This document shows, in pieces, positions 10,474 through 45,223 of a DNA stretch of 64,000 nucleotides. Source of the DNA: Candidatus Nomurabacteria bacterium. Lineage in GTDB: Bacteria > Patescibacteriota > Saccharimonadia > JAGOAT01. Under the pieces are notes generated by a model. It was not told where the DNA came from. It saw only the letters and a program-made list of their open reading frames with translations, and did not search any database. A program made the position numbers and the translations under genes. The stretch spans positions 30,321 to 94,320 of the forward strand of contig JACKGM010000002.1 of assembly GCA_020639315.1 (NCBI GenBank). The letters run 5' to 3'. Within the stretch, counting starts at the first letter, position 1. Each line of letters begins with the position of its first letter.

Positions 10474-11484
10474 ATGTTAGATAAAAATTTACTCAAGCAA
10501 CTAGAAAGTTTGGTCAATAATTCTCAGGGTATTTTGATACTGGCACCAGATAGTCCAGATGGAGATAGTGTTGGGTCAAATCTGGCTCTGCTAAGTAGCT
10601 GGCAACTACTTGGCAAGCAAGTCTTCTGGTATGGTGATCGAGGTAATGACCCTGGATACAGCTATATCAAAGGTAATGATCTCTGTCAATTTAGTAAAAA
10701 TCTCAAGCAGATTAAGGGAAGATTTGATCTAGTATTCCAGATGGATGCTGGATCATCCCAGCAATTTGAGAAGACCTACCAGTCCAACCCTTGGCTTGAG
10801 GAAATTAAAACTGTGACGATTGATCACCATGGATCACGCAATGGTGAGCAAACTGACTTGATGATAGTTGATCCTACGGCAGCAGCTAATACTATTTTGG
10901 TATTTGATATTATTAGGGCTTTAGGTTGGCCAATTGATCAAGATATCGCAGAATACTTGATGATCGGGATTTACGCAGATACAGCTGGATTTATCAATGC
11001 TAATACTGATGCCAGGTCATATCAAGCCGCCGCTGACTTGATGAAGTATCAAGTAGACCCTCATCGTTTATATCGAGAACATATCGAAGGTCAGGCCCTA
11101 GATCATATTGCGCTGACTAGGCTTCATAAGATTATGTCAAACAACGTTGTAAAAAGAGGGGTTGTGGCCTTTGCCCATATAGACAATAGTGATATCCAGG
11201 ACCTAGATCCTGGTCACCATATCTCACACCGTGTGATGTCTCATCTCGATCACCTAAAGGGAGTGAGGGTCAGGTTTGTCGTTTCCGAAGTCGATACCAA
11301 CCAGTACAAGATCTCATTTCGTTCGACTACAGAGTATGATGTCAGCAAGGTAGCTGAAAAGTTTTCTGGAGGAGGGCATAAGGTAGCTGCTGGTGCCAAG
11401 CTTGATGGTCCAGAGACGGTAGTGCAGGCAGCTGAACAGATATACCAAGTACTAATAGAGGAATTGGGAATTGAAGCAGCTTAG
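10474..11484 (+). CDS. DHH-family phosphoesterase (NrnA-like oligoribonuclease/pAp phosphatase)
   Basis: DGDSVGS, DHH, GGGH motifs; 336 aa. Confidence 0.8.
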   Translation: MLDKNLLKQLESLVNNSQGILILAPDSPDGDSVGSNLALLSSWQLLGKQVFWYGDRGNDPGYSYIKGNDLCQFSKNLKQIKGRFDLVFQMDAGSSQQFEKTYQSNPWLEEIKTVTIDHHGSRNGEQTDLMIVDPTAAANTILVFDIIRALGWPIDQDIAEYLMIGIYADTAGFINANTDARSYQAAADLMKYQVDPHRLYREHIEGQALDHIALTRLHKIMSNNVVKRGVVAFAHIDNSDIQDLDPGHHISHRVMSHLDHLKGVRVRFVVSEVDTNQYKISFRSTTEYDVSKVAEKFSGGGHKVAAGAKLDGPETVVQAAEQIYQVLIEELGIEAA

Positions 11485-29527: not shown

Positions 29528-30016
29528 ATGGGGATAATACTTTTCTTAGTAGGTTTATTAGCTAGCCTGACCCAGGTGAATTGGCCAAGTGATATGCTAT
29601 TTCAGCCTCAGTTGGTGATTATTTTTATCTTACTTTTGACGCTGAGGCTTAGACTTAGTAGTCTAGTTTGGTATTGTCTGGTATATGGCGTGGTATTAGA
29701 CATCAATAGTCCTTGGAACCTTGGTATTTCGACTCCATTTTTGATACTAATCTGTCTGATTGCTAGCTTTGGACTAAGGATTGTTAGTAATCCAAATCAA
29801 GGGCTTAGTTTACTTGGCTTGGTATTGTTGTCTAGCCTCGGCTATCAATTGTTGACTGTAGTTTATGCCAGTAATATCAGCTTGATTGGTGGGGTGAATT
29901 ATTGGCAAATTTTGCTCAATCTGGCTTTGGATCTGACTTTGACTGCTACAATTATATTCTTCCGTAGTCTATGGATTAGCAATCAAAATCATCGGCGGTG
30001 GTCATGGGAAAGATAA
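29528..30016 (+). CDS. mreD: rod shape-determining protein MreD (membrane)
   Basis: 162 aa, 5 TM; position between mreC and PBP2. Confidence 0.6.
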   Translation: MGIILFLVGLLASLTQVNWPSDMLFQPQLVIIFILLLTLRLRLSSLVWYCLVYGVVLDINSPWNLGISTPFLILICLIASFGLRIVSNPNQGLSLLGLVLLSSLGYQLLTVVYASNISLIGGVNYWQILLNLALDLTLTATIIFFRSLWISNQNHRRWSWER

Positions 30017-31959
30017 ATATTTTTGGTGATCACTATGATCAGGGACGAGATTACCAGTCGAGTAGCTTCCAGCAAAAGATTAGTGATAGTGAGCTTTGGT
30101 CAAGTCAACTACTAGCGGGGAGTTCTGAACAACGGATTGAGGAAGAAGTCGATAAGAAATTTTTTAAGCTACTATTTTTGCCAATTATTTTTGTAGCCTC
30201 GCTTTTCATCGGTCAATTGTTCAATCTACAGTTTATAGAAGCTAACAATCTAGATTTCTTGGCTCAAACCAATCGACTGAGGAGTCAATTGATCAGAGCA
30301 CCGAGAGGAATTATCTATGATCGCAATAGTCAACCACTGCTTAGGAATACTTCCGAATATCAGTTGGTATTAAACCCAACATTACTAGACTCAGATAGTG
30401 CAAAGCTAGAGCAAGACCTGCAAGCGATTAGCCAAATTATAGACTTGGATCATCAAGCCAAGCTTGATCAGATTCAGTCAAAGTTGCGCCAGAGAGAGAC
30501 AATCGTGATCGCTGACAAGATTGAGAAAGATCAGGCAATTTCACTCCAGGAGCTGGAGGCAGACTTGTCGGGATTTGGAGTTGAGATTAGACCCAGTAGA
30601 GAATACCTTTATCCAGAAGAGTTTGCTCATATCTTGGGGTATACTGGTCGGGTCACTGCAGAGGATCTTGAGAGGAGTGACCAATATCAAGTGACTGATA
30701 TTATAGGCAAGCTAGGGCTTGAACAGCAGTACAACCAAACTCTCTCAGGTGAGGATGGCAAGATTCAGTTTGAGGTCGATTCTACAGGTCAACCTATTCG
30801 GTTTCGCCCTAGTCAGGAGCCAGTAGATGGGGAAGACTTGGTAACAACCTTGGATTTGGGCTTACAGGAAGAGGCCTATAAAGTGATTGAGAAATATAGC
30901 AATCAAGCAGGGAGTGGCAGGGGTAGTATGATGGCTATCGACCCTAATAATGGTGAGATTTTGGCAGCCGTTAATTACCCTAGCTATGATAACAATCTGT
31001 TTGACAAGGGAATTGGTCAGGCGGATTATGATCAATTGGTGGGAGACCCAGATAAACCGTTATTTGATCGACTGATTGGAGGTAGCTACCCTGTGGGATC
31101 GATTATCAAGCCACTGATTTCACTAGCCGGGTTGGAATCAGGGGTGATTGATCAAACTACGACCTACAATGATACCGGATCACTAATCATAGAAAATATT
31201 TACGATCCTAGTATAGTCTATCAATTCAAAGGGTGGAATCCAGCTGGGCTTGGACCGGTCAATGTGATCAGAGCTTTGGCTCTTAGTAGTGATATTTTTT
31301 ATTATATAGTAGGTGGGGGCTATAAGGACTTGATTGGTCTGGGGGGAGAACGGTTGACAGATTGGTATCAAAAATTTGGTTTAGGCAAACTGACAGGGGT
31401 CAATATTCCAGGAGAGTCAGCTGGTAATCTGCCATCACCAGCTAAATGGGCAGAAGTAGGTAGAGATTGGCTACTGGGAGATAGCTACAACATTAGTATT
31501 GGACAGGGTGAACTTCTGGCTACTCCACTCCAAATGCTCTACGCTACTGCTTCAATCTTTGGGGGAGGTAAATTTTACCAGCCAAATTTTGTCAAATCGA
31601 TTGGGGATCAGGTAGTGGAGTCAAAAGTAGTGCAAGAAAATGTCTATAGCGAGGTTAATCGTCAGCTCGTGCTTGAAGGGATGAGGCAGGCTGCTTCGTC
31701 ATTGGGGACGGCTGGGTCAATCTTTGCAAGTCTACCATTTAGAGTAGCTGGCAAGACGGGTACGGCCGAGACTAGCACTGAGTCGGGGGATTCCAATCAG
31801 ATTAGATCTAAGGCTCATGCTTGGTTTACAGTGGGTGCACCTGATGTCAATACTCAGATCGTGATGATCGTTATGATTGAAAACGCTGGGGAGGGGTCAG
31901 CTTTTGCGGCTCCAGCTGCTCAGGAGATATTGAGCTGGTGGGCTGAGAATCGATACTAA
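29998..31959 (+). CDS. mrdA: penicillin-binding protein 2 (elongasome transpeptidase)
   Basis: SIIK (SxxK) and KTGTAE motifs. The start could be ATG 30004. Confidence 0.85.
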   Translation: MVMGKINIFGDHYDQGRDYQSSSFQQKISDSELWSSQLLAGSSEQRIEEEVDKKFFKLLFLPIIFVASLFIGQLFNLQFIEANNLDFLAQTNRLRSQLIRAPRGIIYDRNSQPLLRNTSEYQLVLNPTLLDSDSAKLEQDLQAISQIIDLDHQAKLDQIQSKLRQRETIVIADKIEKDQAISLQELEADLSGFGVEIRPSREYLYPEEFAHILGYTGRVTAEDLERSDQYQVTDIIGKLGLEQQYNQTLSGEDGKIQFEVDSTGQPIRFRPSQEPVDGEDLVTTLDLGLQEEAYKVIEKYSNQAGSGRGSMMAIDPNNGEILAAVNYPSYDNNLFDKGIGQADYDQLVGDPDKPLFDRLIGGSYPVGSIIKPLISLAGLESGVIDQTTTYNDTGSLIIENIYDPSIVYQFKGWNPAGLGPVNVIRALALSSDIFYYIVGGGYKDLIGLGGERLTDWYQKFGLGKLTGVNIPGESAGNLPSPAKWAEVGRDWLLGDSYNISIGQGELLATPLQMLYATASIFGGGKFYQPNFVKSIGDQVVESKVVQENVYSEVNRQLVLEGMRQAASSLGTAGSIFASLPFRVAGKTGTAETSTESGDSNQIRSKAHAWFTVGAPDVNTQIVMIVMIENAGEGSAFAAPAAQEILSWWAENRY

Positions 31960-32529: not shown

Positions 32530-33053
32530 CATAATTCAAATACTGGATCTCCCATAATTTCCTACGGAAATTTGGAAGATGACACACAGAGGGCATTGTC
32601 ATCCTCCGAAACTCGTCCCTTGTCTTGTCATCCTCCGAAACCCGCCCCTCTCTTGTCATCCTCCGAATCCCCGTTTCTCTCTTGTCATCCTCCGAAGTTC
32701 GGAGAACTTACGGGGGATCCAGTATTCCCGCATTTGCATTGTCATCCTCCGAAACCAGAGGGTTTACGGGGGATCCAGTATCCTGGCATTTCCATCCGTC
32801 ATACTCAGAACTTGCTCTGGGTATCCAGAAAACTAACAATAAACATTAAAAGTAACTGTATTACCTAAACCCTAAACCATTATCTAGAGTTCTGGATCCC
32901 CAACCTTTCCTTCAAATGAAAGGCGGAAAAGTCGAGGATGACCCAACTCCTGTCATCCTCCGAAACCCCCTCCCTGTCCAGTCATCCTCCGAAACCCCGT
33001 TTCTCTCTTGTCATCCTCCGAAGTTCGGAGAACTTACGGGGGATCCAGTATCC
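32530..33053. repeat. REP-like module cluster
   Basis: Antisense module 32538..32584; half-modules; sense modules 32683..32726, 32740..32782 and 33009..33053; degenerate units between. Confidence 0.85.
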
Positions 33054-33092
33054 TGTATCTTCAAGATCCACTACGCTTACAGAAACATCAGA

Positions 33093-33183
33093 TGGTGCGG
33101 ATGAGAGGATTTGAACCTCCACGGAGTTTTGATCCTCCACTAGGACCTGAACCTAGCGTGTCTACCGATTTCACCACATCCGC
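33093..33183 (-). tRNA. tRNA-Leu (anticodon CAG), long variable arm, CCA encoded
   Basis: Hand fold: GCGGATG acceptor, anticodon arm CTAGG-TTCAGGT-CCTAG, T arm GGAGG-TTCAAAT-CCTCT. Confidence 0.9.
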
Positions 33184-33213
33184 AATGCCTTACTATTTTA
33201 ACACAAATCTAGA

Positions 33214-33380
33214 TATAGCCCCCATAAAACAAAACCTGTACTTTTGAGCGTACCTTACAGTCTATAGTTATCGCTATTACTCCTCACTGTGTCTACGGAT
33301 ATGATTTGTCACAATAACAACAACTCTAGATCCATAATCTATCATTCAAAACAAACAGGTTTTATTTTACGACGGCTATA
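33214..33380. mobile_element. MITE-B1 copy (167 bp including TATA at both ends)
   Basis: Homologous to 41715..41881. The right end supplies the last 6 codons and the stop of ORF 33362..34456. Confidence 0.8.
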
Positions 33381-34456
33381 GGATTAATTATCTTGCTATC
33401 CACTAGGCCGTCCTTATCCACTACTATCAGCCTTAGACTGTCAATCGGTTGATCCCCAGTCAGATTGAGGATGTTGCCTTCGAGCCAATCTAGGCTTTGA
33501 TTGACCTGCCAATAATACTGCTGGATTCCCTGATCATCTACCGAAGCTGAACCGTCATAGAGCTGGCCACTTTTTTGCTCCAAAACAGCTACTGGTGCAA
33601 GCTTTCTCTTGCCGAAATAGCTATAGATGATAGGCTTGGCGTTTTCTTTCGGCAATTCGGTAATATCTACTAGTCTTGCCTCTTCTGTTTGGTACCCTAG
33701 ACCACGATAAGTAGCTTGATTGCTAAAACCTTGCTTCTTCAGGTAACCATTTTCTCGGATAATCGTGTAATATTCTTGGTTTTCAGTCTGGAACATGCTA
33801 CCAATCTTGAGCTCCATATCATTACCTCGTGGCAGAATCAAATCAAGCTCGGTTGCCGAGAGGGGTAAATAAGTCGGATCTATGTAGCTACCCAAAATGA
33901 TTTGATCTGGGAAGCGTCTTAGCTGGCGGTTCTCGATCAAAAATGTATCTTCACCACTTCTGATGATGCTACCTTCAGGATGAAGAGCTGACAATTGATA
34001 ATCCTCACCAGTTTTTTCGGGCAATTGATCTAGCTCGACTTCTAGGATTTGGTCTGGCTGATAACCAAGTAGATTGAGGACCTCAGAGCTAATTGGGCGC
34101 TTGGTTACCTCTTGCTTACCCTCGATCAGGTAGTGTTGCCCCTTGGACAAGAGGATAGTACCTTGATTGTAAGATAGCTGATAGCCATCGGGTAGGGCGA
34201 GATCTGTGTCAGTAGCTAGCTTGAGGTTGATCGGAGTGACCCCATAGCTAGCTAGGACACTAGGGTAGGTAAGTAAGTGTTTTTTGTAGTCCTCACCTAT
34301 CAGGTAGATTGATTTGGTAGTAGGGTCGAAAATAAAGGTGTTGGGGAGGTGTTTTACCCTGAGGGTGGAGTGATAGTTTGAGTAGGTTCTAGTGAGACTT
34401 AGTGCTAGGTTGAAAGCTATTATGACCAGTAGTATCCGAAATAGAATTTTCTTCAT
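33362..34456 (-). CDS. hypothetical secreted/membrane-anchored protein
   Basis: 364 aa with an N-terminal signal anchor. Confidence 0.55.
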   Translation of the reverse strand: MKKILFRILLVIIAFNLALSLTRTYSNYHSTLRVKHLPNTFIFDPTTKSIYLIGEDYKKHLLTYPSVLASYGVTPINLKLATDTDLALPDGYQLSYNQGTILLSKGQHYLIEGKQEVTKRPISSEVLNLLGYQPDQILEVELDQLPEKTGEDYQLSALHPEGSIIRSGEDTFLIENRQLRRFPDQIILGSYIDPTYLPLSATELDLILPRGNDMELKIGSMFQTENQEYYTIIRENGYLKKQGFSNQATYRGLGYQTEEARLVDITELPKENAKPIIYSYFGKRKLAPVAVLEQKSGQLYDGSASVDDQGIQQYYWQVNQSLDWLEGNILNLTGDQPIDSLRLIVVDKDGLVDSKIINPIAVVK

Positions 34457-34567: not shown

Positions 34568-34581
34568 AATAGAATGTTTAA

Positions 34582-34744
34582 TAACCCTGTTGCCATATAA
34601 ACTTGCGAGGTCAAAGCTGATGATTTTTATTCCAGACTAGCAAAACACGACAAAGCATAACAGGAGTTACGCTGCGAAGTGTTTTGCTAGTCTGGGGCAA
34701 AAATGGCAGTTTTGAAGCCGTGAGGTTATATGGCAACAGGGTTA
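34582..34744 (+). mobile_element. MITE-A copy 4 (163 bp)
   Basis: Same family and orientation as copy 1. Confidence 0.85.
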
Positions 34745-34816
34745 ATGTATAGTCGCGTAGTCGCGGACAGTTCGCGACAGTTCAGGAGATATTCGGTGTC
34801 TGAAAATATCTAGCTA

Positions 34817-35650: not shown

Positions 35651-36268
35651 CTAACACTTCACCACTGGTTGCCTCAAGATAGTCCGTAGCTTGTCAGGAC
35701 TAACCTTACGAAAATCGCTAAAGTAAATCTCGTGGTGCTTACCAACCATTTTCAGCCCCCTTTCGGGTATAAATCGATTATGTATTTGGTCTAGTATGTC
35801 TGCCTCGTTGTCAAACGAACCTACATGTAAAGTCTGAACAGATAGCCCTTCATCGAGTGTTTCAAGGCGTACATCATATAATTTGGCTGGTGACTCTTTC
35901 TTTGCTATCTCAGTTACAATATTTTCAAACATCTCTTGCGTAATCCAATTAGGTTGCATAATCATTAGCGTGAAGTTCCATTGTGACTTGTCTCGTGCGG
36001 TCGTAAACGTCGTCATATCATCGGCCCACCATAATCCCTCAAGTGGCATGACTACATAGTCCTTGCCTAGTTCTTTTTTGCTTACAAACTTGAGCTTGTA
36101 TGCAGTGGGGTATAGAGCCTGCACAGCATCAGTAAAATCCTTGCTAGTATTCGGGTCGCCGTGACCGTCTACCATTAAGTACTGTAGCTTTGGCACTGCA
36201 ATCAATTCGATCTTATGGTTTTTAGCTTTGTAACTATCAACTGCTTTTTTGTAATCAATCTTGTTCAT
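35651..36268 (-). CDS. GyrI-like small-molecule-binding domain protein
   Basis: PKLQYLMVDGHGDPNTS...; ATG at 36268. The track start at 36316 extends into MITE-D. Confidence 0.6.
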   Translation of the reverse strand: MNKIDYKKAVDSYKAKNHKIELIAVPKLQYLMVDGHGDPNTSKDFTDAVQALYPTAYKLKFVSKKELGKDYVVMPLEGLWWADDMTTFTTARDKSQWNFTLMIMQPNWITQEMFENIVTEIAKKESPAKLYDVRLETLDEGLSVQTLHVGSFDNEADILDQIHNRFIPERGLKMVGKHHEIYFSDFRKVSPDKLRTILRQPVVKC

Positions 36269-36285
36269 AGTCTTAGTATAGCAAG

Positions 36286-36451
36286 TAGACTTGTTTCCCA
36301 ATAATTTTTTGAGCATAAAATTGCCTAGTTTGAGACTAGAATAGTCTTTTCGTAAAGAGCCCTAACAGAGTTAAGATGATGAAGCGAAAAAATTATTATA
36401 GTTCAAAGTAGGCGGTTTGGGGCCAGAAACCGTACTTAAGGAACAAGTCTA
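36286..36451 (+). mobile_element. MITE-D copy 2 (166 bp)
   Basis: The ends tagacttgtttcc / ggaacaagtcta covary with copy 1. Confidence 0.75.
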
Positions 36452-36461
36452 AGGAGTATTG

Positions 36462-36550
36462 GTCATCCTCCGAAGTTCGGAGAACCTACGGGGGTCCAGA
36501 GCATTGCCATCCTCCGAAACCCGAAGGGTTTACGGGGAATCCAGTATTTT
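36462..36550 (+). repeat. two tandem REP-like sense modules
   Basis: Inner stems AAGTTC/GAAC(C)T and AAACCC/GGGTTT. Confidence 0.8.
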
Positions 36551-37133
36551 GTACAGTCTCTTTTGTCTGTAGTTTAATATTAGCTAATTTGGAGGGAGTG
36601 CGAAAGTCCTATAGTGTTAGGGCAGAGAGTTTAAGTTTAATACGTCTTTTACTACTTGAACTAGTCAAACTCCTATTTCATTCAGGCTCAAAGCTTTTAC
36701 AAAACTCATCAGCTAGGTAAAATAGTACTATTAGATCCATATACGTGTCTCCTTTGTTTTTAATTTATATATGACTGAGATAATAGCAGGACTTACCTCC
36801 TGTTATCTAGGTGAATTCAGAGGAGACTCCTATATCGAGCTGGGGGTTAAGTATAGCTCTTTTTTTGGATAGATTTTAAAAGACTATGCTTTTAGCATTA
36901 TTAGCTACCTGATCTTTTTATCCCTAGTGTTTCGCTGTCATTACAGCTCATCAGAACAACTTAAGCTTGGTATTTTCAATAAAACCTAAACTAATTTGTT
37001 GACACTCTCGCTCCTCACTGCTTGTGGCGGTGAGGAGCTAATCTTTCATCCATTGTGGAGGATTACTCGATCAGAAACAATCATAGAAAGTTTAGAGAGT
37101 GCCGATCTTTTCCTTCCGGCTTGTTCGATATAC

Positions 37134-38597
37134 TTACAGGGCTAGGTTTTCCGTCTCTGGCATGTCAGCTTCGGACAGTGTTGTTGACTGTGATTCCTCT
37201 CCGAACAAGCCGGAAAAATCCACACCAACAGCTTTGAGCATCATCAGACCGCGAGCCAGCTGTGTGGGCAGCTGGTCCATGAATCCACCGAGACCATTTG
37301 CGCCACCACCGTCAAGGACGGTGATATTGTCAATACCCGCGAGGGGCTCGCCAACTGCACGCATGATGTCGGCCAAGCGCTCAATGAGCATGGGTGTTGC
37401 TTGTGCGCGAAGCGCGGCAGCATCCATCGCTTTGAGAGCTTCAGCAAGCTTGGCTTGACCTTCGGCTTCGGCAAGGAGTCTGGCCTGTGCTCCAGCCGCT
37501 TCGGCCTCCAGCTCGCGCTGGCGGGCATCAGCAGTCGTAGCTCGAGCAGCTGCTTCCGCATCGCCTCTGAGTCTTATCCCTTCAGCCTCTGCTTCCGATC
37601 GAGCAATAGCTGCGGCTTTGTCGCCCGTAGCTTTTTCGATAGCAGCTTCCTTGGCAGCTTGCGCCGGGATGATCACGTCGGCCTGTTGGGCCTCGTGTGC
37701 ACGAAGTGCACGTTGACGTTCCACCTCAACACGAGCTTCTTCTTCAGCCTGGTCAGCAGCCGCGTTTGCAACTACGACAGCCTTCCTGGCCTCAGCATCA
37801 GCACGTGGGCCAGACTGAGCAGCGGTAGCGCGTTCTGCATCGACAGTCGCCTGGATTCGAGCGAGCTCGAGATCTCGGTCTTGCTCTGCTTGAGCGATAG
37901 CCACGTCAGCCAACGCTTGAGCTGTGTCTCCTTCACGTTTGGCCTCTGCTGCAGCGATCTTCGCATCACGCTGAGCGTTGGCCTCACCGATTTCGGCATC
38001 TCGACGAACCTCAGCGATTCGTCGTCGACCGAGAGATTCCAGGTAACCGTTTGGATCGGAAATGTTCTGGATTGTCAAGACATCCAGCTCCATCCCAATC
38101 CTCTGGAAATCCGTACCGGCCTCTTCGAGGACGCGGCGACGGAAATCCTCACGGTTGTTATTTAATTCCTCGACGGTCATCTGCGAAACAATGCCTCGCA
38201 TATTGCCCGCAAGTATCTCTTGCACCTGGTTGTGAAGCTCCCGTCGGTCAGATGTCAGGAAACGTTCTACCGCCGTAGCGATAGCCTCGTCCGTTGAGCC
38301 AAATTTAATCAGTCCAACCCCATCGACATTGACTGGAACACCGTCCGTGGAAATGATGTTCGACACCGCGACCTGGACGTTGAACGGCTCCAGCTCCATG
38401 ACGTCGACTCGCTCAATGAGGGGGAACTTGAAACGTGCCCCACCTCGAACGATTTTCTGCTTTCCTCTTCCGGTGAAAACTGCCACCTGGTTAGGTGGCA
38501 CCTTAACGTAGTTTCTGGCGTAGATCATCGCGATTAACGCCAGAATGGCGAATCCGCCGATGACAAGCATCAGTGGTATGGTCAGAAAATCGGGCAT
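37134..38597 (-). CDS. flotillin-like SPFH/band-7 domain protein
   Basis: N-terminal TM, SPFH domain, long Ala/Glu-rich coiled coil, GGAG SD; ~60% G+C. Confidence 0.85.
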   Translation of the reverse strand: MPDFLTIPLMLVIGGFAILALIAMIYARNYVKVPPNQVAVFTGRGKQKIVRGGARFKFPLIERVDVMELEPFNVQVAVSNIISTDGVPVNVDGVGLIKFGSTDEAIATAVERFLTSDRRELHNQVQEILAGNMRGIVSQMTVEELNNNREDFRRRVLEEAGTDFQRIGMELDVLTIQNISDPNGYLESLGRRRIAEVRRDAEIGEANAQRDAKIAAAEAKREGDTAQALADVAIAQAEQDRDLELARIQATVDAERATAAQSGPRADAEARKAVVVANAAADQAEEEARVEVERQRALRAHEAQQADVIIPAQAAKEAAIEKATGDKAAAIARSEAEAEGIRLRGDAEAAARATTADARQRELEAEAAGAQARLLAEAEGQAKLAEALKAMDAAALRAQATPMLIERLADIMRAVGEPLAGIDNITVLDGGGANGLGGFMDQLPTQLARGLMMLKAVGVDFSGLFGEESQSTTLSEADMPETENLAL

Positions 38598-38634
38598 CTC
38601 CCGACTCCTTTCTTATGGGTTGAGATTCTCATTG

Positions 38635-39180
38635 TTATAATGGATTGGGGGCAACTACAAAGCAGCCATCACAAAAGTCAATGATGATTACCGACGAGCC
38701 CAAGGGCATCTTGGGACCCCCTTGACTAACGGCGGTAACATCTACGGTAGCGTTATTATCATCCCGTAACCTGACAATTCCCCAGTCGCCTGAGCCTATG
38801 GACATGATCACGAGGCCTGTCTTGCCAATGTATGACTGCTTCGACAATTGGGAGTTGGACTGCTGCCTAAACAGCGGCCGCAGAACCAAAAAGACGCTTG
38901 CTATCAACATGACGAAAAAGGCGACGATCGCAAGAGCAAAGGTCAGAATTGCCGGTATGTCTGCCCTTTCGGACAAATAGCCGACAAGACCCAAACCTAT
39001 GGCTCCCGCAGCGATCGCTTTGAGACTAAAGAACGAGGGTTCTCCTGCCTCGAAGTCGAAATCCAGGTCAGCATCGAGGCCCTCCAGGAATTCGAAGATC
39101 CCACCCAGAAAGAGAGATCCGATCAAATACACAGCCCCAACTGCTGCTATCAGCAGGTATAGGTTTCCATGATCTAACAT
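38635..39180 (-). CDS. NfeD-family membrane protein
   Basis: TM helices plus C-terminal OB-like domain (GKTGLVIMSI...GSSVIIID); AAAGGAAG SD before ATG 39180; upstream of the flotillin gene as in yuaF-floT. Confidence 0.75.
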   Translation of the reverse strand: MLDHGNLYLLIAAVGAVYLIGSLFLGGIFEFLEGLDADLDFDFEAGEPSFFSLKAIAAGAIGLGLVGYLSERADIPAILTFALAIVAFFVMLIASVFLVLRPLFRQQSNSQLSKQSYIGKTGLVIMSIGSGDWGIVRLRDDNNATVDVTAVSQGGPKMPLGSSVIIIDFCDGCFVVAPNPL

Positions 39181-39597
39181 AGGCTTCCTTTCTCTCTGTT
39201 TCACTCGCTGTTTGCGAAGTGTCGAGACGGAATGCCTCGAAATCAATAAATTCTGACATTGTCTCTAAGCTTAAGTTCTGACTTATAACTTGGGTTTAGT
39301 GAATTTACTAATTTCGAAACACTCGTTCGATAAAAACAAAAAAGTGGGAAGGGATTAGTTGCACTTCTATCTAAAACTTTCTATAGATTGTTAAGGTGCT
39401 AGTTTAAGAACAGTTTTGCTAAATAACTAAAAGTTTTAACTTTTAGTTATTGCTCCACGCTCAACAAGCCAGTGACATCATGGCATATTAGGACAGATAA
39501 GTCAACCTTTTTACGTGTAACTATAGGATATATCCTACTTGCCCTAAATCAATCTAGGCTTTGTGACTAATTAGGCTTTAGGCTTAAACCAACCCTA

Positions 39598-40230
39598 CTA
39601 TACAATTGCATTAGGTCTATGTGTCTCCAGGTAGGTAATAAGATGTCGTCTAAAGTCTTTAGATACTACTTCCCAATCTGCAATCGTAAAGTCCTCAGGT
39701 GCTTTACCGAACTTCTTGGCTAATTCAGCACCGCCGTTGTCGGTCTCCCAATCACCAAAGTATGTTCTCCAATGCAACACTTCTACCGTTGGCTTGCCAT
39801 CTTTGTGGCGAATAGCTCCGCCGCCGATCCCCGTTCCCCATATAACATAAGCAAACTCGTCCTCAGAATGCCCATAGTAAGCTTCGCCAAGTTCAGCAGA
39901 CATAACATCGTTGTCATAAAATACGGGACAGCCACCTAATCCCTCTGAAAGAGAGGCAACAAGTGGCTTGCCAGCCCAACTTGCTAGGTTCTTCGCCGAT
40001 TTAATCTCTGTCTTGTCATCGTTAGGGGAGCCTGGAGTACCAATGCCTACAGCTTCTATCTGTTCACCGTCTGCAATTTTAAGAGCAGACTCAACCATAA
40101 AAGCTAAGTCGTTATCAAAGTCGTGAGTATTCTTTCGACGTAGTGGTTCACCAATAAACACTGGGTTTTCTATGCTAGAAGCACCAGCTATACGAGTGTT
40201 AGTACCACCTGCGTCGATAGATATATACAT
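39598..40230 (-). CDS. ROK/ASKHA-type sugar kinase-like protein (short, no zinc motif)
   Basis: DAGGTNTR, GIGTPG, DNDVMSAELGE, WGTGIGGG motifs; 210 aa. Confidence 0.6.
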   Translation of the reverse strand: MYISIDAGGTNTRIAGASSIENPVFIGEPLRRKNTHDFDNDLAFMVESALKIADGEQIEAVGIGTPGSPNDDKTEIKSAKNLASWAGKPLVASLSEGLGGCPVFYDNDVMSAELGEAYYGHSEDEFAYVIWGTGIGGGAIRHKDGKPTVEVLHWRTYFGDWETDNGGAELAKKFGKAPEDFTIADWEVVSKDFRRHLITYLETHRPNAIV

Positions 40231-40420
40231 AAGGTATATTATAGCACTTTATGGAGTACTATTCAAGATGCTAGTGCTATCTCTATACGTCGCACATTAT
40301 ATGTTGCACGATCTACCCTAACAGGGGTAGAGCTGCATATTTATCGAAAATGGGTCATGTCAAGTGCTTGTATTCTTTTCGCCCACCCCTGTTAGAAACA
40401 GTTATTATACAATAATTGAT

Positions 40421-41290
40421 TTAGTCTATTGGTTGTGACAAATTATTGTCTAGAAACTTGTAAGCATACTCTCGCATTTCAGGGCTGAACACATGTTGAC
40501 CAGGATAAACCTTTAGCTCCACGTTCTGTTGACCCTTGGCTTTGATTGCTTCATAAAGCCCATCGTAGCCCCGACTCCACTTGTCTTCAATCGTAGCTGA
40601 GATAAGCAGAGGGCAATCATCAAAATGCTCAATAACATCTTCTAAATCGAATTTTTCCATGAAGCCAGGAATACAGAACTCCATTTGTATGCCCGTGTCT
40701 GGTGTTAGTGAGTGCCTATAATCTATGCAGCCACAATTAGAAACTGATGCTCTAATTCGGTTATCAAATGCAGGAACCCAAAGAGCCATACGTCCACCAT
40801 AAGAGTGACCAATAAACCCAATCTTGGTTGAGTCTACATTAGGCTGAGCTTGAAGGAAATCTAACCCGACAGATACATCATGTAATACTTTTGCCATTAA
40901 GGTGTTACCTTGTACTAACCTCGTTGCTAACGCAAACCATTCGCCCCCACCTTGTCGTTCTTCAAATGCAATAGCGTCTGGTGCAAATGTAATATAACCA
41001 CGCTCCGCAAGTTCTTTTGCGTAGGCTTGGTCTGGGTTACCAGCTAGTCCAACAACTTCATTTTTGCCAAGCTCAAACTCACCATGATGCTGATGATGAC
41101 AAAAGATTGCCGGCACATTCCCTGATAAGTTTTTCGGGATACAAATGTAGGCATTTATTCGTTCATTGGCTTCAACCATGTACGAAACCTTGCGTCTAGT
41201 GAAGCTACCACAATCGACTTCTTCTAGAACTTGAGAGTCTAAATCAACTTTTTCGGGAAATGTTCCAAGTAGCTTTTGTATTTCGTCCAT
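40421..41290 (-). CDS. alpha/beta hydrolase (dienelactone hydrolase/acetyl esterase-like)
   Basis: GHSYGG nucleophile elbow, 289 aa. Confidence 0.6.
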   Translation of the reverse strand: MDEIQKLLGTFPEKVDLDSQVLEEVDCGSFTRRKVSYMVEANERINAYICIPKNLSGNVPAIFCHHQHHGEFELGKNEVVGLAGNPDQAYAKELAERGYITFAPDAIAFEERQGGGEWFALATRLVQGNTLMAKVLHDVSVGLDFLQAQPNVDSTKIGFIGHSYGGRMALWVPAFDNRIRASVSNCGCIDYRHSLTPDTGIQMEFCIPGFMEKFDLEDVIEHFDDCPLLISATIEDKWSRGYDGLYEAIKAKGQQNVELKVYPGQHVFSPEMREYAYKFLDNNLSQPID

Positions 41291-41342
41291 AGCGATATTA
41301 TACCTCAGTAGCTCTTGCTTTAGACTAGTGATTTTACTATAT

Positions 41343-41360
41343 TAACCCTGTTGCCATATA
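41343..41360 (+). mobile_element. MITE-A terminal fragment (18 bp)
   Basis: taaccctgttgccatata, then unrelated sequence. Confidence 0.5.
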
Positions 41361-41484
41361 GCCCAGAAAAGAGTGTCCACCTCTTGGCTTATCCAGTTTT
41401 TCTTAGGTTGCTTGTAGCTGTTGGTTAATCCTAGTTCGTTCTGTATGCTCTAAGTAAAAGTTCCATAAACCTGCACTGATTAGT

Positions 41485-41698
41485 GACCCCTCCGGAACTC
41501 ACTAACCCACTTCCTTGTATTCTCTAATGCAGGATTGATACTGTGATCCTCAAAAACCTGGAGGGTTTACGAAGTTTCGCATTGTCATCCTCCGAAAATC
41601 CAAAGGATTTTACGGGGGAACCAGTATTTTGCATTGCCTGGGGTTAACTCAAATACTGGATCTCCGGTATCACCCTACGGGTAATCCGAAGATGACAG
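41485..41698 (+). repeat. 214-bp direct repeat, left copy (unique 60 bp + degenerate module + REP doublet)
   Basis: Same length as 44670..44883, with about 7 substitutions by eye. Confidence 0.85.
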
Positions 41699-41714
41699 AA
41701 GAAAAACAGATACC

Positions 41715-41881
41715 TATAGCCCTCGCAAAACAAAACCTGTTTGTTTTGGGTGATAGATTATTGATCTAGAATTGTCGCTATTGTGACAAATCATATCCGT
41801 AGATATGGTTAGGAGCAATAGTGACAGTTATAGACCATATGATACAGTCAAAAGTACAGGTTTTGTTTTTCGGGGGCTATA
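41715..41881. mobile_element. MITE-B1 copy (167 bp, intact)
   Basis: tatagccctcgcaaaacaaaacctg...caggttttgtttttcgggggctata. Confidence 0.8.
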
Positions 41882-41952
41882 TAAAGTCCTGTGGGATCTT
41901 TGAGTTTGCTATATGACAGGGTTAGGGTGGTAAATTTGGGTTGGCAACGATA

Positions 41953-42300: not shown

Positions 42301-43712
42301 TCTTTTCCAATGCAGAATGAGCCTAAACAAGGTTCACCTGTTGGCAAGGTAGACATACTCTAGGTAAGTCAATTATCCTGTCAAAAGAAAAATGTGTGTC
42401 AACATAGGAGTATGAATTTCACCATGAAGACACACAATATTACTATTAACGATATTAAAGACTTTGTAAATAGACAGAGCCCATTGTTAATACCAGCTGA
42501 CAATAATACCAAGGCTAGCAACTATGAGTTTGTAGAGGATGTTTTAGTGAGTATTTGCTACCTTAAACTATCTAGATCTGATAAGGGAGTAGTTAAACAG
42601 TTTTTAGCTACTAATACTGGCTACAAAAGAGCTCAGGTTACTAGATTGATTAATCAATACATTAAGTCCGGTACTGTTAAGCTAGCACCGCGTAAACTAG
42701 GCCAGAATTTCAAACAGGTTTACACCAACTCAGATATTAGGCTATTAGCTAGATTTGATCAATTAAATGAATTTATGAGTGGACCCGCTACAGTCATGAT
42801 GCTTCATGATGAGTATTACCTACATAGACAAGAAGCATACCAAAAACTAGCCAACATCAGCTCCTCCCATATCTATAACCTACGTAATACAAATACCTAT
42901 TCTACCAGGATACAACGCTATCAAAAGACTAAACCTAGAACTGTCAGTATCGGCACTAGAGCCAAACCAGAACCAAATAATCAACCTGGCTTCATAAGAG
43001 TAGACAGTGTGCATCAAGGGGACAGGGATAAAGCCAAGGGGGTTTACTATGTCAATCTGGTAGATGAAGTTACTCAGTGGGAAGTAATAATGTGTCTTGA
43101 TAGTATCTCTGAAAGATCAATGATCCCAACCTTAAAGTTAGCTATCAATGAGTTTCCTTTTGAGGTTAAAGGATTCCATAGTGATAACGGTAGTGAGTAT
43201 ATTAACTACCAAGTAGCTAAGCTGTTGATTGAGCTCAATATCAATCTAACCAAAAGTAGACCTAGGCATAGTGGTGACAATGGGCTTGGTGAGAGTAAAA
43301 ATGGCTCCGTGATCAGAAAAACTTTTGGCTATACTCATATACCAATAACTGCTCATAATGTATCTAGGATTAATCTTTTTCTCTCAGAATACCTAAACCC
43401 CTATCTCAACTACTACCGAGCATCAGCCTACAGAAAAACAGAGGTACTTAGTAATGGCAAGATAATACATAGCTACCCCCATAAGGACTACCAGACACCT
43501 TACCAGAAGCTTAAATCAATAGACCCTAGGGGAGAATACCTAAAACCAAATACTAGCTTTGCAAAAATGGATCAAGTCCTCTATGCTAAAAGTACTACTC
43601 AATACCTAGAAGAGATGCAAGAAGCAAAAACTAGGATGTGGGATAGTCTTGAACCTTACAAACATTAATCGTTGACAGACATTCTTTAGGCTCATTTTGG
43701 TATTGGAAAAGA
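42301..43712 (+). mobile_element. IS element (1412 bp) with ~30-bp imperfect terminal inverted repeats
   Basis: Left end tcttttccaatgcagaatgagcctaaacaa; right end reverse complement tcttttccaataccaaaatgagcctaaagaa. Confidence 0.8.
42412..43668 (+). CDS. DDE (rve/integrase-core) transposase
   Basis: DSVHQGD...FHSDNGSEYIN...GESKNG catalytic-triad context. The start is uncertain (GTG 42394, ATG 42412 or ATG 42424). Confidence 0.8.
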   Translation: MNFTMKTHNITINDIKDFVNRQSPLLIPADNNTKASNYEFVEDVLVSICYLKLSRSDKGVVKQFLATNTGYKRAQVTRLINQYIKSGTVKLAPRKLGQNFKQVYTNSDIRLLARFDQLNEFMSGPATVMMLHDEYYLHRQEAYQKLANISSSHIYNLRNTNTYSTRIQRYQKTKPRTVSIGTRAKPEPNNQPGFIRVDSVHQGDRDKAKGVYYVNLVDEVTQWEVIMCLDSISERSMIPTLKLAINEFPFEVKGFHSDNGSEYINYQVAKLLIELNINLTKSRPRHSGDNGLGESKNGSVIRKTFGYTHIPITAHNVSRINLFLSEYLNPYLNYYRASAYRKTEVLSNGKIIHSYPHKDYQTPYQKLKSIDPRGEYLKPNTSFAKMDQVLYAKSTTQYLEEMQEAKTRMWDSLEPYKH

Positions 43713-44630: not shown

Positions 44631-44669
44631 TCTTTTCCAACCTAGAATGAGCCTAAACAATGTTTACTT
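44631..44669 (+). mobile_element. solo left end of the rve-type IS (truncated second copy)
   Basis: tcttttccaacctagaatgagcctaaacaatgtttactt matches 42301..42340; homology stops where the right 214-bp repeat starts. Confidence 0.7.
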
Positions 44670-44883
44670 GACCCCTCCGGAACTCACTAACCCACTTCCT
44701 TGTATTCTCTAATGCAGGATCGATACTGTGATCCTCAAAAACCTGGAGGGTTTACGAAGTTTCGCATTGTTATCCTTCTAAAATCCAAAGGATTTTACGG
44801 AGGAACCAGTATTTTGCATTGCCTGGGGTTAACTCAAATACTGGATCTCCGGTATTACCCTACGGGTAATCCGAAGATGACAG
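44670..44883 (+). repeat. 214-bp direct repeat, right copy
   Basis: See 41485..41698. Coordinates were checked against the frame of spurious ORF 44700..44903. Confidence 0.85.
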
Positions 44884-44903
44884 GAGGAGGGACGGGACTT
44901 TAA

Positions 44904-45066
44904 TAACCCTGTTGCCATATAAACTTGCGAGGTCAAAGCTGATGATTTTTATTCCAGAATAGCAAAACACGACAAAGCATAACAGGAGTTACGCTGCGAA
45001 GTGTTTTGCTAGTCTGGGGCAAAAATGGCAGTTTTGAAGCCGTGAGGTTATATGGCAACAGGGTTA
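44904..45066 (+). mobile_element. MITE-A copy 5 (163 bp)
   Basis: Same family and orientation as copy 1. Confidence 0.85.
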
Positions 45067-45135
45067 ATTAGGATATAACAAAAGAAGGTGAAAAAATTAT
45101 AAGACAATAGAGTTAATATAATCAAAATATCAAGA

Positions 45136-45223
45136 TGGTGCGGATGAAAGGACTTGAACCTTCACGCCAGAGACTGGCACTAGCTCCTAAGGCTAGCGTG
45201 TCTACCAATTCCACCACATCCGC
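45136..45223 (-). tRNA. tRNA-Leu (anticodon UAG), long variable arm, CCA encoded
   Basis: Hand fold: GCGGATG acceptor, anticodon arm CTAGC-CTTAGGA-GCTAG, T arm GAAGG-TTCAAGT-CCTTT. Confidence 0.9.

What the first reader, a model, noticed from the sequence alone, without database searches (positions are those of the whole stretch)
37100..39250. Compositionally foreign nfeD-flotillin operon (about 60% G+C in a 40% G+C genome)
Two 60-nt lines that I counted by hand inside the flotillin gene are 60% and 62% G+C. Lines counted in housekeeping genes are 37% and 47%. The shift begins and ends abruptly in AT-rich spacers (about 37,100 and 39,250).

The two genes keep the classic NfeD-upstream-of-flotillin order (as in B. 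subtilis yuaF-floT). They use strong GGAG-type SDs rather than the near-leaderless layout of many native genes. The high G+C also produces long antisense shadow ORFs.

This indicates recent horizontal acquisition from a high-GC donor. If the genome is a Saccharibacteria-type epibiont, an actinobacterial host is an obvious candidate donor. That is pure inference.
Basis: partly seen in the sequence, partly recalled or inferred. Interest (0 to 1): 0.6.

Follow-up and report, generated by a model that had tools for sequence, protein, structure and literature searches.

The report
Acquired NfeD-flotillin operon in a CPR bacterium
A two-gene membrane-scaffold operon (a short NfeD protein plus a flotillin) in a small-genome candidate-phyla-radiation bacterium was gained by horizontal transfer, but its closest relatives are copies in other such bacteria, not in a high-GC host, so this is an ordinary but well-documented gene-transfer case.

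Summary
The compositional anomaly is real but overstated. The pair (37,134-39,180, minus strand) is 54.5% G+C against 41.6% for the rest of the window. The roughly 60% stretch codes for an Ala/Glu/Arg-rich coil where GC3 is only 0.43, so amino-acid composition explains it. A true synonymous excess lies in the SPFH domain, the C-terminal tail and the NfeD gene (GC3 0.57-0.60; native 0.384 +/- 0.047).

Horizontal acquisition is well supported:
- One relative carries an intact ROK gene followed by an HD gene. Its homology to the window ends at 39,601/39,602, where the window's ROK acquires a stop codon.
- Another relative has DLH directly next to the GyrI-like gene.
- Only 2 Saccharibacteria appear among the 80 best-matching loci from 185,579 species-representative genomes.
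- Five independent assemblies reproduce the junctions, so the contig is not a chimera.

A direct, recent actinobacterial origin is not supported. The nearest homologues (62-78%) are in other CPR/Saccharibacteria contigs, in different genomic contexts and always GC-richer than their hosts. Actinobacterial homologues reach at most 58% and fall outside that clade. The window's gene is a recombination mosaic and the most ameliorated copy (37 GC-to-AT against 1 AT-to-GC synonymous changes). I rate it a new member of a known kind, of modest interest.

The parts
37134..38597 (-). Flotillin gene (487 aa). It has an N-terminal hydrophobic anchor, an SPFH/Band_7 domain (residues 32-209), an Ala/Glu/Arg-rich coil (about 216-400) and a Flot domain (356-435).
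   Evidence: Pfam Band_7 at 3.5e-29 and Flot at 5e-10, both above the gathering score. Solved flotillin-1/2 match at E=1.5e-45 over residues 34-436. GC 0.562 and GC3 0.531.
38635..39180 (-). Short YuaF-type NfeD-like gene (181 aa from ATG 39,180; the ORF is open to TTG 39,246). It has N-terminal hydrophobic helices, a conserved RPLxRQQSNS motif and a C-terminal beta domain.
   Evidence: Profile A2 matches YuaF 2K14 at E=1.9e-7. Pfam NfeD is below threshold (0.041 here, best 0.0014 among relatives). A precomputed NfeD_TM (weak) hit is on record. Alignment. GC3 0.571.
38598..38634 (-). 37-nt intergenic spacer carrying the flotillin Shine-Dalgarno site (AAAGGAG). The tight spacing is consistent with one transcription unit.
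   Evidence: Sequence read directly.
37010..37038 (.). 13-bp-stem G+C-rich hairpin about 95 nt past the flotillin stop codon. It is a candidate terminator.
   Evidence: This is a consensus scan only, and the T-run is on the + strand side.
39181..39601 (-). AT-rich (about 34% G+C) leader upstream of the NfeD gene, with one sigma-70-like site (39,505-39,477). It belongs to the foreign segment, because it has no counterpart in the relatives.
39598..40230 (-). 3'-truncated ROK-family gene (210 aa; 258 aa in the relative). The junction with foreign DNA is at 39,601/39,602, where a TAG stop is created.
   Evidence: L178-L182 are about 86% identical down to 39,602 and then unrelated. Pfam ROK covers only profile positions 1-139 of 294.
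36269..37133 (.). Non-coding stretch between the flotillin and the GyrI-like gene, with no counterpart in the L184-type relative. It contains the hairpin, a 43-codon ORF relic (about 36,612-36,740, minus strand) and two copies of the genome's own hairpin repeat (36,460-36,553). The far boundary of the insertion lies somewhere in this stretch.
   Evidence: L011 ends at 36,509, inside the repeat.
40421..41290 (-). Dienelactone-hydrolase-family gene. It is the native anchor on the upstream side.
   Evidence: Pfam DLH. 89-91% aa identity in relatives L179 and L184.
35651..36316 (-). GyrI-like gene (homology supports a start near 36,268). It is the native anchor on the downstream side and lies directly next to DLH in L183-L186.
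   Evidence: Pfam GyrI-like. 82% aa identity to L184.

Best explanation
This is a horizontally acquired, partly ameliorated two-gene operon. It encodes a short YuaF-type NfeD membrane protein and a flotillin.

It belongs to a G+C-rich cassette found sporadically in Saccharibacteria/CPR genomes, at different chromosomal positions. Copies of the cassette recombine with one another.

In this genome it landed in a repeat-rich variable region bracketed by two tRNA-Leu genes, between the DLH and GyrI-like genes. The insertion cut off the last 48 codons of a ROK gene. Since then the copy has accumulated strongly AT-biased synonymous changes toward the host's 42% G+C.

The ultimate source of the cassette was probably a high-GC lineage. 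The sister group of the clade contains an actinobacterium. The immediate donors of this copy were most likely other CPR bacteria.

Function is inferred from the family. The flotillin would anchor by its N-terminal hydrophobic segment and oligomerise through its SPFH and coiled-coil regions into a membrane-microdomain scaffold. The co-transcribed NfeD partner would bind it through its C-terminal beta domain.
For: Gene identity.

Foreign composition: GC3 z-scores of +3.1 and +4.0, codon-usage z-scores of -3.7 and -4.1, and the only region with 600-bp G+C of 0.50 or more.

Insertion:
- The L178-L182 relative (about 86% nt identity) has DLH, a full-length ROK and an HD gene. Its homology ends exactly at the window's premature ROK stop.
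- L183-L186 have DLH directly next to the GyrI-like gene.

Patchiness: only 2 Saccharibacteria among the best 80 of 291 relatives found in 185,579 species-representative genomes.

Different contexts in each relative: secA, gltX, smpB, and between dnaK and dnaJ.

The cassette is GC3-richer than its host contig in every relative measured, by +0.13 to +0.36.

Amelioration:
- Against P0003, which is about 96% identical in the SPFH segment, 53 synonymous sites are A/T in the window and G/C in P0003, against 7 the other way.
- Polarised, the window lineage shows 37 GC-to-AT and 1 AT-to-GC changes, against 3 and 0 on the P0003 lineage.
- Native genes compared with the L179 relative are balanced (38:23 and 20:17).

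Mosaic: the SPFH half groups with P0003 in 163/200 bootstraps, and the C-terminal half groups with P0002+P0007 in 191/200.

Clade structure: the window falls in a CPR-type clade (151/200 for the SPFH half). Actinobacteria, Chloroflexi and all uniformly high-GC metagenome contigs fall outside it.

Not a chimera.
Against: - No integrase, target-site duplication or transposase directly flanks the pair, so the insertion mechanism is unknown. The suspected IS relic has no family match.
- The relatives used as 'empty sites' are not strict sisters. L184 is 52% G+C overall and syntenic only for tRNA-Leu, DLH and GyrI-like. The L178-type contigs are at most 2.4 kb, so that strain could carry the pair elsewhere.
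- Taxonomy of most clade members is inferred from context only. Named members are two Saccharibacteria/Saccharimonadales MAGs and one contig binned as Nitrososphaera.
- The trees are neighbour-joining only. Support for the clade is moderate in the SPFH half and weak in the C-terminal half (63/200).
- Parsimony polarisation with GC-rich outgroups favours inferring a GC-rich ancestor.
- Function is entirely inferred from family membership.
Confidence: 0.75

Rival explanations
1. One reading: a recent, direct transfer of the operon from a high-GC donor, such as the actinobacterial host of an epibiotic Saccharibacterium, into this genome.
For: - After the CPR-type clade, the best named hits are Actinobacteria (Motilibacter 58%, Mycobacteriales and Kineosporia 45-53%) and Chloroflexi.
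- The sister group of the clade contains Motilibacter.
- GC3 is elevated.
- Gene exchange between Saccharimonadia and Actinomycetota hosts is documented in general (bioRxiv 10.64898/2026.09.16.751625).
Against: - No actinobacterial homologue exceeds 58% identity.
- Uniformly high-GC metagenome contigs fall outside the window's clade.
- The closest relatives (62-78%, and 94-98% in the SPFH segment) are on low- or mid-GC CPR-type contigs.
- GC3 of 0.53 is far below a fresh actinobacterial gene, which has 0.73-0.95 in L017 and L065.
- The copy carries a long record of GC-to-AT substitutions.
Confidence: 0.08
2. The pair is a native, vertically inherited CPR gene pair. Its high G+C would then be intrinsic, arising from amino-acid composition plus some gene-specific constraint on codons, and there would have been no transfer.
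For: - The 60% stretch is explained by Ala/Glu/Arg content (GC1 0.84, GC3 0.43).
- Some relatives share context, namely L175 with L001 and P0007 with L005, which suggests some vertical descent.
Against: - GC3 and codon usage are outliers in the SPFH domain and in the NfeD gene, which are not Ala-rich.
- Only 2 Saccharibacteria species representatives carry it.
- The chromosomal context differs in most carriers.
- The ROK gene is truncated at the junction, and the pair is absent from the equivalent site in two kinds of relative.
- The 37:1 AT-ward synonymous bias argues against selection holding GC3 high.
- Intragenic phylogenetic conflict is present.
Confidence: 0.1
3. A large phage was the vehicle. 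The cassette would travel on jumbo phages that infect CPR bacteria or their hosts, and it entered this genome by that route.
For: The 255 kb contig L003/L004 (binned as Nitrososphaera) carries an NfeD-flotillin pair 64-67% identical to the window's. Its neighbourhood is phage-like: long same-strand runs of small genes without family hits, phrog_33861 at 1.8e-52, a phage metallophosphoesterase, and an endolysin-type PG_binding plus SLT protein.
Against: - No relative was found in 2.9 million IMG/VR viral contigs.
- The closest match in 50,697 phage records is 39% over half the protein.
- No phage genes are adjacent to the pair in the window.
- Only 21 kb of the 255 kb contig was seen, with no terminase or capsid gene.
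Confidence: 0.05
4. The contig is an assembly chimera that joins a high-GC fragment from another organism into a low-GC contig.
For: The compositional shifts at both ends are abrupt. Repeats nearby break other assemblies at 36,509 and 41,513.
Against: - L011 (Logan, an independent sample) is 100% identical over 36,509-41,513 and spans both junctions.
- L012, L013 and L014 (three more samples and assemblers) cross the ROK|NfeD junction at 100% identity.
- The copy is ameliorated toward the host's composition.
Confidence: 0.02

Closest known systems
Bacillus subtilis yuaF-floT (NfeD2-FloT) operon
   Same: - The gene order is the same: a short NfeD directly upstream of a flotillin with tight spacing.
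- The NfeD partner is the short type (181 aa), with N-terminal membrane helices and a C-terminal beta domain. At profile level it matches the solved YuaF domain 2K14 (E=1.9e-7).
- The flotillin has an SPFH domain, an Ala/Glu coil and a Flot domain.
   Different: - It is not an equivalog of FloT. NCBIfam NF058507 scores 276 bits against a cut-off of 700.
- Single NfeD sequences fall below Pfam's NfeD threshold.
- No third gene (yuaI) is present.
- The host is a reduced-genome CPR bacterium in which the operon is accessory and laterally acquired.
- Regulation is unknown. Sigma-W control in B. subtilis is recalled from the literature and was not tested here.
Eukaryotic flotillin-1/flotillin-2 complex (PDB 9BQ2, 9L3G)
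   Same: It aligns over almost the full length (query residues 34-436, E=1.5e-45). This implies the same SPFH-plus-coiled-coil oligomerising architecture.
   Different: It is bacterial, appears to be a single paralogue rather than a heteromer, and has an NfeD partner gene, which eukaryotes lack. Oligomeric state was not tested.
Actinobacterial and Chloroflexi flotillins (Motilibacter, Rhodococcus, Mycobacterium, Kineosporia; Dehalococcoidia)
   Same: These are the closest named non-CPR homologues, with the same domain layout and high G+C. They are widespread in Mycobacteriales.
   Different: They are only 45-58% identical and fall outside the clade containing the window. In those genomes the gene's G+C matches its surroundings (L017, L065).
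Documented horizontal acquisitions in Saccharibacteria (for example the arginine deiminase system, PMC8764695; nrdD and others, PMC7427843; exchange with Actinomycetota hosts, bioRxiv 10.64898/2026.09.16.751625)
   Same: It is an accessory function gained laterally by a reduced-genome epibiont lineage, with a patchy distribution across the phylum.
   Different: The cargo is different: a membrane-scaffold operon rather than a metabolic one. No paper in the searched library links flotillin to Saccharibacteria. Here the signal is an older, ameliorating, recombining cassette, not a transfer at over 99% identity.

Membership tests
Flotillin family (SPFH superfamily, flotillin type) | SPFH/Band_7 domain | tested here: met
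   PF01145 at E=3.5e-29, 102.5 bits against a cut-off of 23.6, residues 32-209.
Flotillin family (SPFH superfamily, flotillin type) | C-terminal flotillin domain with an Ala/Glu-rich coiled-coil region | tested here: met
   PF15975 at 40 bits against a cut-off of 27, residues 356-435. Residues 216-400 are Ala/Glu/Arg-rich. The protein aligns to solved flotillin-1/2 over residues 34-436 at E=1.5e-45.
Flotillin family (SPFH superfamily, flotillin type) | N-terminal hydrophobic membrane anchor | tested here: inconclusive
   The hydrophobic stretch MPDFLTIPLMLVIGGFAILALIAMIYA is read directly from the translation. No topology predictor was run.
B. subtilis FloT equivalog (NCBIfam NF058507) | Score at or above the curated equivalog cut-off | tested here: not met
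   276 bits against a cut-off of 700. It is a flotillin, but it should not be named FloT.
Short (YuaF/NfeD2-type) NfeD proteins | C-terminal NfeD partner-binding beta (OB-like) domain | tested here: met
   A profile of 7 relatives matches the YuaF soluble domain 2K14 at E=1.9e-7 over profile positions 114-175. Single-sequence Pfam PF01957 is only 0.041 (14.5 bits against a cut-off of 29.1), and 4 of 7 relatives match at up to 0.0014. Membership therefore holds at profile level only.
Short (YuaF/NfeD2-type) NfeD proteins | N-terminal transmembrane helices and no ClpP-type protease domain | tested here: inconclusive
   The protein is 181 aa, which is too short for a protease domain. A precomputed PF25842 NfeD_TM (weak) hit is on record. 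A low-confidence AlphaFold model (pLDDT 55) shows three helices and then beta strands.
Short (YuaF/NfeD2-type) NfeD proteins | Encoded immediately upstream of, and on the same strand as, an SPFH-family gene | tested here: met
   A 37-nt gap separates them on the same strand. The same pairing is seen in all related loci.
Horizontally acquired genomic islet | Composition and codon usage atypical for the host genome | tested here: met
   GC3 z-scores of +3.1 and +4.0, and codon log-likelihood z-scores of -3.7 and -4.1. These are the two most atypical of 53 ORFs.
Horizontally acquired genomic islet | Absent from the equivalent position in related genomes, with a definable junction | tested here: met
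   L178-L182 have an intact ROK followed by an HD gene, and homology ends at 39,601/39,602. L183-L186 have DLH adjacent to the GyrI-like gene. Caveat: these relatives are not strict sisters, and only one junction is resolved to the base.
Horizontally acquired genomic islet | Patchy taxonomic distribution or a gene tree that conflicts with vertical descent | tested here: met
   Only 2 Saccharibacteria are among the best 80 loci from 185,579 species representatives. A second Saccharimonadales copy groups with Motilibacter (143/200). Intragenic conflict is supported by bootstrap (163/200 against 191/200).
Horizontally acquired genomic islet | Flanking mobility signatures (integrase or transposase, direct repeats, att sites) | tested here: not met
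   No repeat pair brackets 36.3-39.6 kb. The ORF relic at about 36,700 has no transposase match. The IS481-like element lies 3 kb away (42,313-43,699) and does not flank the pair.

The most novel reading that the evidence does not exclude
The NfeD-flotillin pair may be a self-contained, persistently G+C-rich module that moves and recombines among Saccharibacteria, and possibly on a jumbo phage, faster than it can ameliorate. It would be replenished from an unsampled high-GC reservoir such as the actinobacterial hosts. It would be retained because a flotillin scaffold organises the epibiont's host-contact or secretion membrane domain. On this reading it would be a marker and an effector of the epibiont-host interface, not a passive passenger.
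Probability: 0.15. Interest if true: 0.55.

Novelty: new member of a known kind. Interest (0 to 1): 0.3.

Why it matters
Gene gain offsets genome reduction in CPR bacteria, and cases with a base-resolved junction, empty-site relatives and a measurable amelioration record are useful calibration points. This case also warns about method. The most striking G+C signal, the 60% stretch, comes from amino-acid composition. And 'the closest homologues are in the same lineage' does not by itself mean a gene is native.

If the cassette really circulates among Saccharibacteria, it points to lateral gene flow and homologous recombination within a lineage usually thought of as isolated epibionts. It would also nominate a membrane-scaffold system as a candidate for host-interface biology. 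In practical terms, the finding is an ordinary horizontal-transfer islet carrying a well-known operon type.

Tried and rejected
1. Sister-genome search with PBP2 (29,998-31,959) in genome contigs. The patterns were too strict and found no relatives. The PBP2 homology search then showed that the host lineage is isolated: 86% on a 2.9 kb contig, then 47% or less.
2. An 'IS982-like transposase relic' at about 36,612-36,740 (minus strand). I recalled this resemblance from memory. NCBIfam and tblastn against 72,556 plasmids found nothing, so I dropped it.
3. Phage carriage. The phages collection gave at most 39% identity over half the protein, and IMG/VR gave nothing. Only the L003 lead remains.
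4. Uniformly high-GC metagenome contigs with 58-65% partial matches (L131, L146, L128, L150) looked like candidate donors. In the tree they fall with Mycobacteriales or Kineosporia-type sequences, outside the window's clade. The percentages were inflated because the matches cover only the conserved SPFH part.
5. The AlphaFold model of the NfeD-like protein from a single sequence had pLDDT 55. That is too poor for a fold search, so I used the profile match to 2K14 instead.
6. The metagenome scan with the clade alignment returned mostly actinobacterial-type relatives and no new clade members with context.
7. Direct repeats or att-like sites bracketing the pair: none found.
8. A third GC-rich gene upstream of the pair in L001, L005 and L007 has no homologue in the window. 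L001's genes match L007's, but in a different arrangement.
9. A first bootstrap run timed out. I redid it with numpy distances.


Full report
WHAT IS THERE

The finding covers two minus-strand genes. The flotillin gene lies at 37,134-38,597 (487 aa). A small gene lies 37 nt upstream at 38,635-39,180; its ORF stays open to a TTG at 39,246, but the ATG at 39,180 follows an AGGAAG Shine-Dalgarno site.

The flotillin identification is solid. Pfam Band_7 (E=3.5e-29) and Flot (E=5e-10) both exceed their gathering scores. The protein aligns over residues 34-436 to the solved flotillin-1/flotillin-2 complex at E=1.5e-45. It does not reach the NCBIfam equivalog cut-off for B. subtilis FloT (276 bits against 700). 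It is therefore a flotillin but should not be named FloT.

The upstream protein gives no significant single-sequence Pfam hit (NfeD E=0.041). However, a profile of it and six relatives matches the solved soluble domain of B. subtilis YuaF (2K14) at E=1.9e-7. A 13-bp-stem hairpin (37,010-37,038) follows the flotillin gene, and one promoter-like site lies about 300 nt upstream of the NfeD start. Both are consensus matches only.

CHECKING THE COMPOSITION CLAIM

The window is 42.0% G+C. The pair is 54.5%, against 41.6% for the rest. It is the only place in the 64 kb window where a 600-bp window reaches 50%.

The figure of about 60% applies only to roughly 37,200-37,950. That stretch encodes flotillin residues 216-400, an Ala/Glu/Arg-rich coil. 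There GC1 is 0.84 and GC2 is 0.54, but GC3 is only 0.43, close to native values.

A real synonymous anomaly lies elsewhere. GC3 is 0.60 in the SPFH domain, 0.59 in the C-terminal tail and 0.57 in the NfeD gene. The mean for 51 other ORFs is 0.384 with sd 0.047. The z-scores are +3.1 and +4.0. A synonymous-codon likelihood gives z-scores of -3.7 and -4.1, making these two genes the most atypical in the window. Long antisense ORFs are present as described.

NOT A CHIMERA

An exact-protein lookup on the neighbouring ROK gene found four independent contigs from other samples and assemblers. All are 100% identical to the window. One of them (L011, 5,005 bp) spans 36,509-41,513 and so crosses both compositional junctions.

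WHO THE HOST IS

The window's proteins are deposited under 'Candidatus Nomurabacteria bacterium' (a 371 kb contig). An identical PBP2 and DLH in another MAG, and an AtpA at 90% identity or more in a third, are labelled 'Candidatus Saccharibacteria bacterium'. PBP2's nearest relatives are one at 86% on a 2.9 kb contig, then 47% or less, mostly Saccharibacteria or Patescibacteria. The host is a CPR bacterium, probably a Saccharibacterium, from a sparsely sampled lineage.

EVIDENCE FOR INSERTION

Two kinds of relative lack the pair at this position.
- Contigs L178-L182 are about 86% identical in DNA to window 41,314-39,602 (DLH and ROK). They carry a full-length 258-aa ROK followed by an HD-domain gene. 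Homology stops exactly at 39,601/39,602, where the window reads TAG followed by unrelated AT-rich DNA. The window's ROK therefore lacks its last 48 codons, and the HD gene is nowhere in the window. The window's arrangement is the derived one, and the foreign segment begins about 350 bp further out than the compositional edge.
- Contigs L183-L186 (up to 1.31 Mb) have tRNA-Leu, DLH (89% aa) and the GyrI-like gene (82% aa) in direct succession. The window has about 4.2 kb extra between DLH and GyrI-like.

Two caveats apply. L184 is 52% G+C overall, with an approximately 44% DLH-GyrI segment and no wider synteny, so it is not a strict sister. The L178-type contigs are short.

The surrounding 12 kb, between two tRNA-Leu genes, is rich in repeats. 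It contains a hairpin repeat family, an IS481-like element, and 170-218-nt repeats. Nothing mobile directly brackets the pair. A short ORF relic that I first took for an IS982 fragment has no family match.

WHERE IT CAME FROM

The closest flotillins (78, 70, 68, 67, 66... %) form a group of about 13 sequences. The group includes a named Saccharibacteria MAG, unnamed CPR-type contigs, and a 255 kb phage-like contig. The group is recovered in 151 of 200 neighbour-joining bootstraps for the SPFH half.

Named Actinobacteria reach only 58% (Motilibacter) or 45-53% (Mycobacteriales, Kineosporia), and Chloroflexi about 47-50%. All of these fall outside the group. So do uniformly high-GC metagenome contigs whose 58-65% partial matches had looked promising.

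Among 185,579 species-representative genomes, the 80 best loci include only two Saccharibacteria. The gene is therefore sporadic in that phylum.

The pair sits in a different neighbourhood in most carriers: beside secA, gltX or smpB, or between dnaK and dnaJ. In every carrier it is GC3-richer than its surroundings, by +0.13 to +0.36.

Some carriers share a locus. L175 and L001 both have S30AE ... NfeD-flot-secA. Yet their NfeD proteins are 95% identical while the flotillin and the flanking S30AE are each 70%. That pattern suggests allelic replacement.

The window's flotillin is itself a mosaic. Residues 50-200 are 94-98% identical to P0003, but the C-terminal third is closest to P0002 and P0007. 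Bootstrap support switches from 163/200 (window+P0003) in the SPFH half to 191/200 (window+P0002+P0007) in the C-terminal half, and each grouping scores 0/200 in the other half.

AMELIORATION

In the SPFH segment the window and P0003 are about 96% identical in protein, and 68 synonymous third positions differ. The window has A/T against P0003's G/C at 53 of them, and the reverse at 7. Polarised with the other clade members, the window lineage shows 37 GC-to-AT and 1 AT-to-GC changes, against 3 and 0 on the P0003 lineage.

Native genes compared with the L179 relative are roughly balanced, at 38:23 and 20:17.

The window's copy has the lowest GC3 of the clade, 0.53 against 0.56-0.89. It therefore descends from a GC-rich ancestor and has resided in AT-rich genomes long enough to decay substantially. 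Parsimony polarisation with GC-rich outgroups leans toward this inference, but the asymmetry between the two lineages is independent of that bias.

VERDICT ON THE INTERPRETATION

Horizontal acquisition and high-GC ancestry are supported, and the chimera rival is excluded. 'Recent transfer from an actinobacterial host' is not supported. The immediate relatives are other CPR copies, the copy is old enough to be half-ameliorated and recombined, and no sampled high-GC organism lies within the clade.

An ultimately actinobacterial origin for the whole clade remains plausible. The sister group includes Motilibacter together with a second Saccharimonadales copy (143/200). This is not shown, however.

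The native-gene rival explains the 60% stretch and the GC-rich relatives. It does not explain the truncated ROK, the empty sites, the patchy distribution, the varied contexts or the AT-ward bias.

MECHANISM (INFERRED FROM FAMILY KNOWLEDGE, NOT TESTED)

The flotillin would insert by its N-terminal hydrophobic segment. It would oligomerise through its SPFH and coiled-coil regions into a membrane-microdomain scaffold, as in the solved flotillin complex. The co-transcribed short NfeD would associate with it through its C-terminal beta domain, as proposed for YuaF and FloT. What the pair does for a CPR epibiont is unknown. A role at the host-contact membrane is speculation.

NOVELTY

Gene gain by Saccharibacteria is documented, including exchange with Actinomycetota hosts (PMC7427843, PMC8764695, bioRxiv 10.64898/2026.09.16.751625). 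NfeD-flotillin operons are a known arrangement. No paper in the searched library links flotillin with Saccharibacteria. A flotillin-domain protein is mentioned in Vampirococcus, a different CPR group (PMC8080830).

This is a new member of a known kind. The mildly unusual point is a cassette that stays GC-richer than every CPR host in which it has been sampled and that recombines between them. Interest is modest.

Noticed in passing
window 32,532-33,057; 36,460-36,553; 41,645-41,706; 44,830-44,891: A family of about 50-nt hairpin-forming repeats (TGTCATCCTCCGAA...ACGGGGGATCCAGTAT) with at least 10 copies, clustered in intergenic DNA. Independent assemblies break at or near these and neighbouring repeats: L011 ends at 36,509, and L011 and L012 start at 41,513. 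It may be a REP/MITE-like element of this genome.
   Followed up: partly
window 42,313-43,699: An IS481-family-like element. It has an rve-domain ORF at 42,394-43,668 (NCBIfam IS481 at E=6.8e-15, below the cut-off) bounded by 21-nt inverted repeats at 42,313-42,333 and 43,679-43,699. It lies inside a 3.2 kb unit flanked by 218-nt direct repeats (41,484-41,701 and 44,669-44,886, 97% identical).
   Followed up: partly
window 33,093-33,183 and 45,136-45,223: Two tRNA-Leu genes (CAG and TAG anticodons) bracket a 12 kb repeat-rich variable region containing the islet. The region also holds a 181-nt inverted repeat (33,202-33,382 and 41,713-41,893, 83%) and a 170-nt near-identical repeat (34,577-34,746 and 44,899-45,068, 99%) that is itself internally palindromic. 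In relative L184 a single tRNA-Leu lies directly before DLH.
   Followed up: partly
window 39,598-40,230 (minus strand): The ROK-family gene is a 3'-truncated copy (210 aa against 258 aa in the relative) and is probably a pseudogene. It is annotated in the public record as a normal 'ROK family protein'.
   Followed up: yes
L003/L004 (contig DATFDW010000828.1, 255 kb), locus coordinates 9,470-11,467: A 255 kb contig binned as Nitrososphaera looks like a jumbo phage of a bacterium. It has same-strand arrays of small genes without family hits, PHROG matches, an endolysin-type PG_binding plus SLT protein, and NAPRTase. It carries an NfeD-flotillin pair 64-67% identical to the window's. The bin assignment is probably wrong.
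   Followed up: partly
L009/L010/L016 (Candidatus Saccharimonadales SMAG_U8752), locus L010 3,277-5,340: A second, phylogenetically separate NfeD-flotillin pair groups with the actinobacterium Motilibacter (143/200). It is inserted between dnaK and dnaJ of a 55% G+C Saccharimonadales genome, with GC3 of 0.89 against 0.65 for its neighbours. This looks like an independent acquisition.
   Followed up: partly
L001 7,804-9,009 and L007 12,572-13,772: Two further GC-rich small genes, one with a lipoprotein-type signal peptide, accompany the pair in two relatives. They lie on opposite sides of it and are 47-68% identical between the two. They have no family hits and no homologue in the window. The transferred block may originally have been larger.
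   Followed up: partly
L175 against L001: Both have the same locus (S30AE ... NfeD-flot-secA). NfeD is 95% identical, but the flotillin and the flanking S30AE are each only 70%, and DNA similarity ends partway through the flotillin gene. This indicates a recombination breakpoint inside the gene.
   Followed up: partly
window 24,721-25,095 (minus strand): A 124-aa ORF with GC3 of 0.576, as high as the islet genes. It lies between a CPA2 antiporter gene and the next plus-strand gene and has no Pfam or NCBIfam match. It could be a spurious ORF or another small foreign gene.
   Followed up: partly
L183-L186, locus L184 9,400-13,200: In a 52% G+C relative, the tRNA-Leu-DLH-GyrI-like segment is only about 44% G+C, like the window's genome. 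That segment may itself have moved laterally between CPR lineages. A native 301-aa Band_7 (non-flotillin SPFH) gene follows the GyrI-like gene there.
   Followed up: no
window 11,471-13,063: The gene matches cysteine--tRNA ligase (TIGR00435, 341 bits against a cut-off of 340) but is deposited as 'hypothetical protein'. It is 530 aa, longer than the 466-position profile.
   Followed up: no
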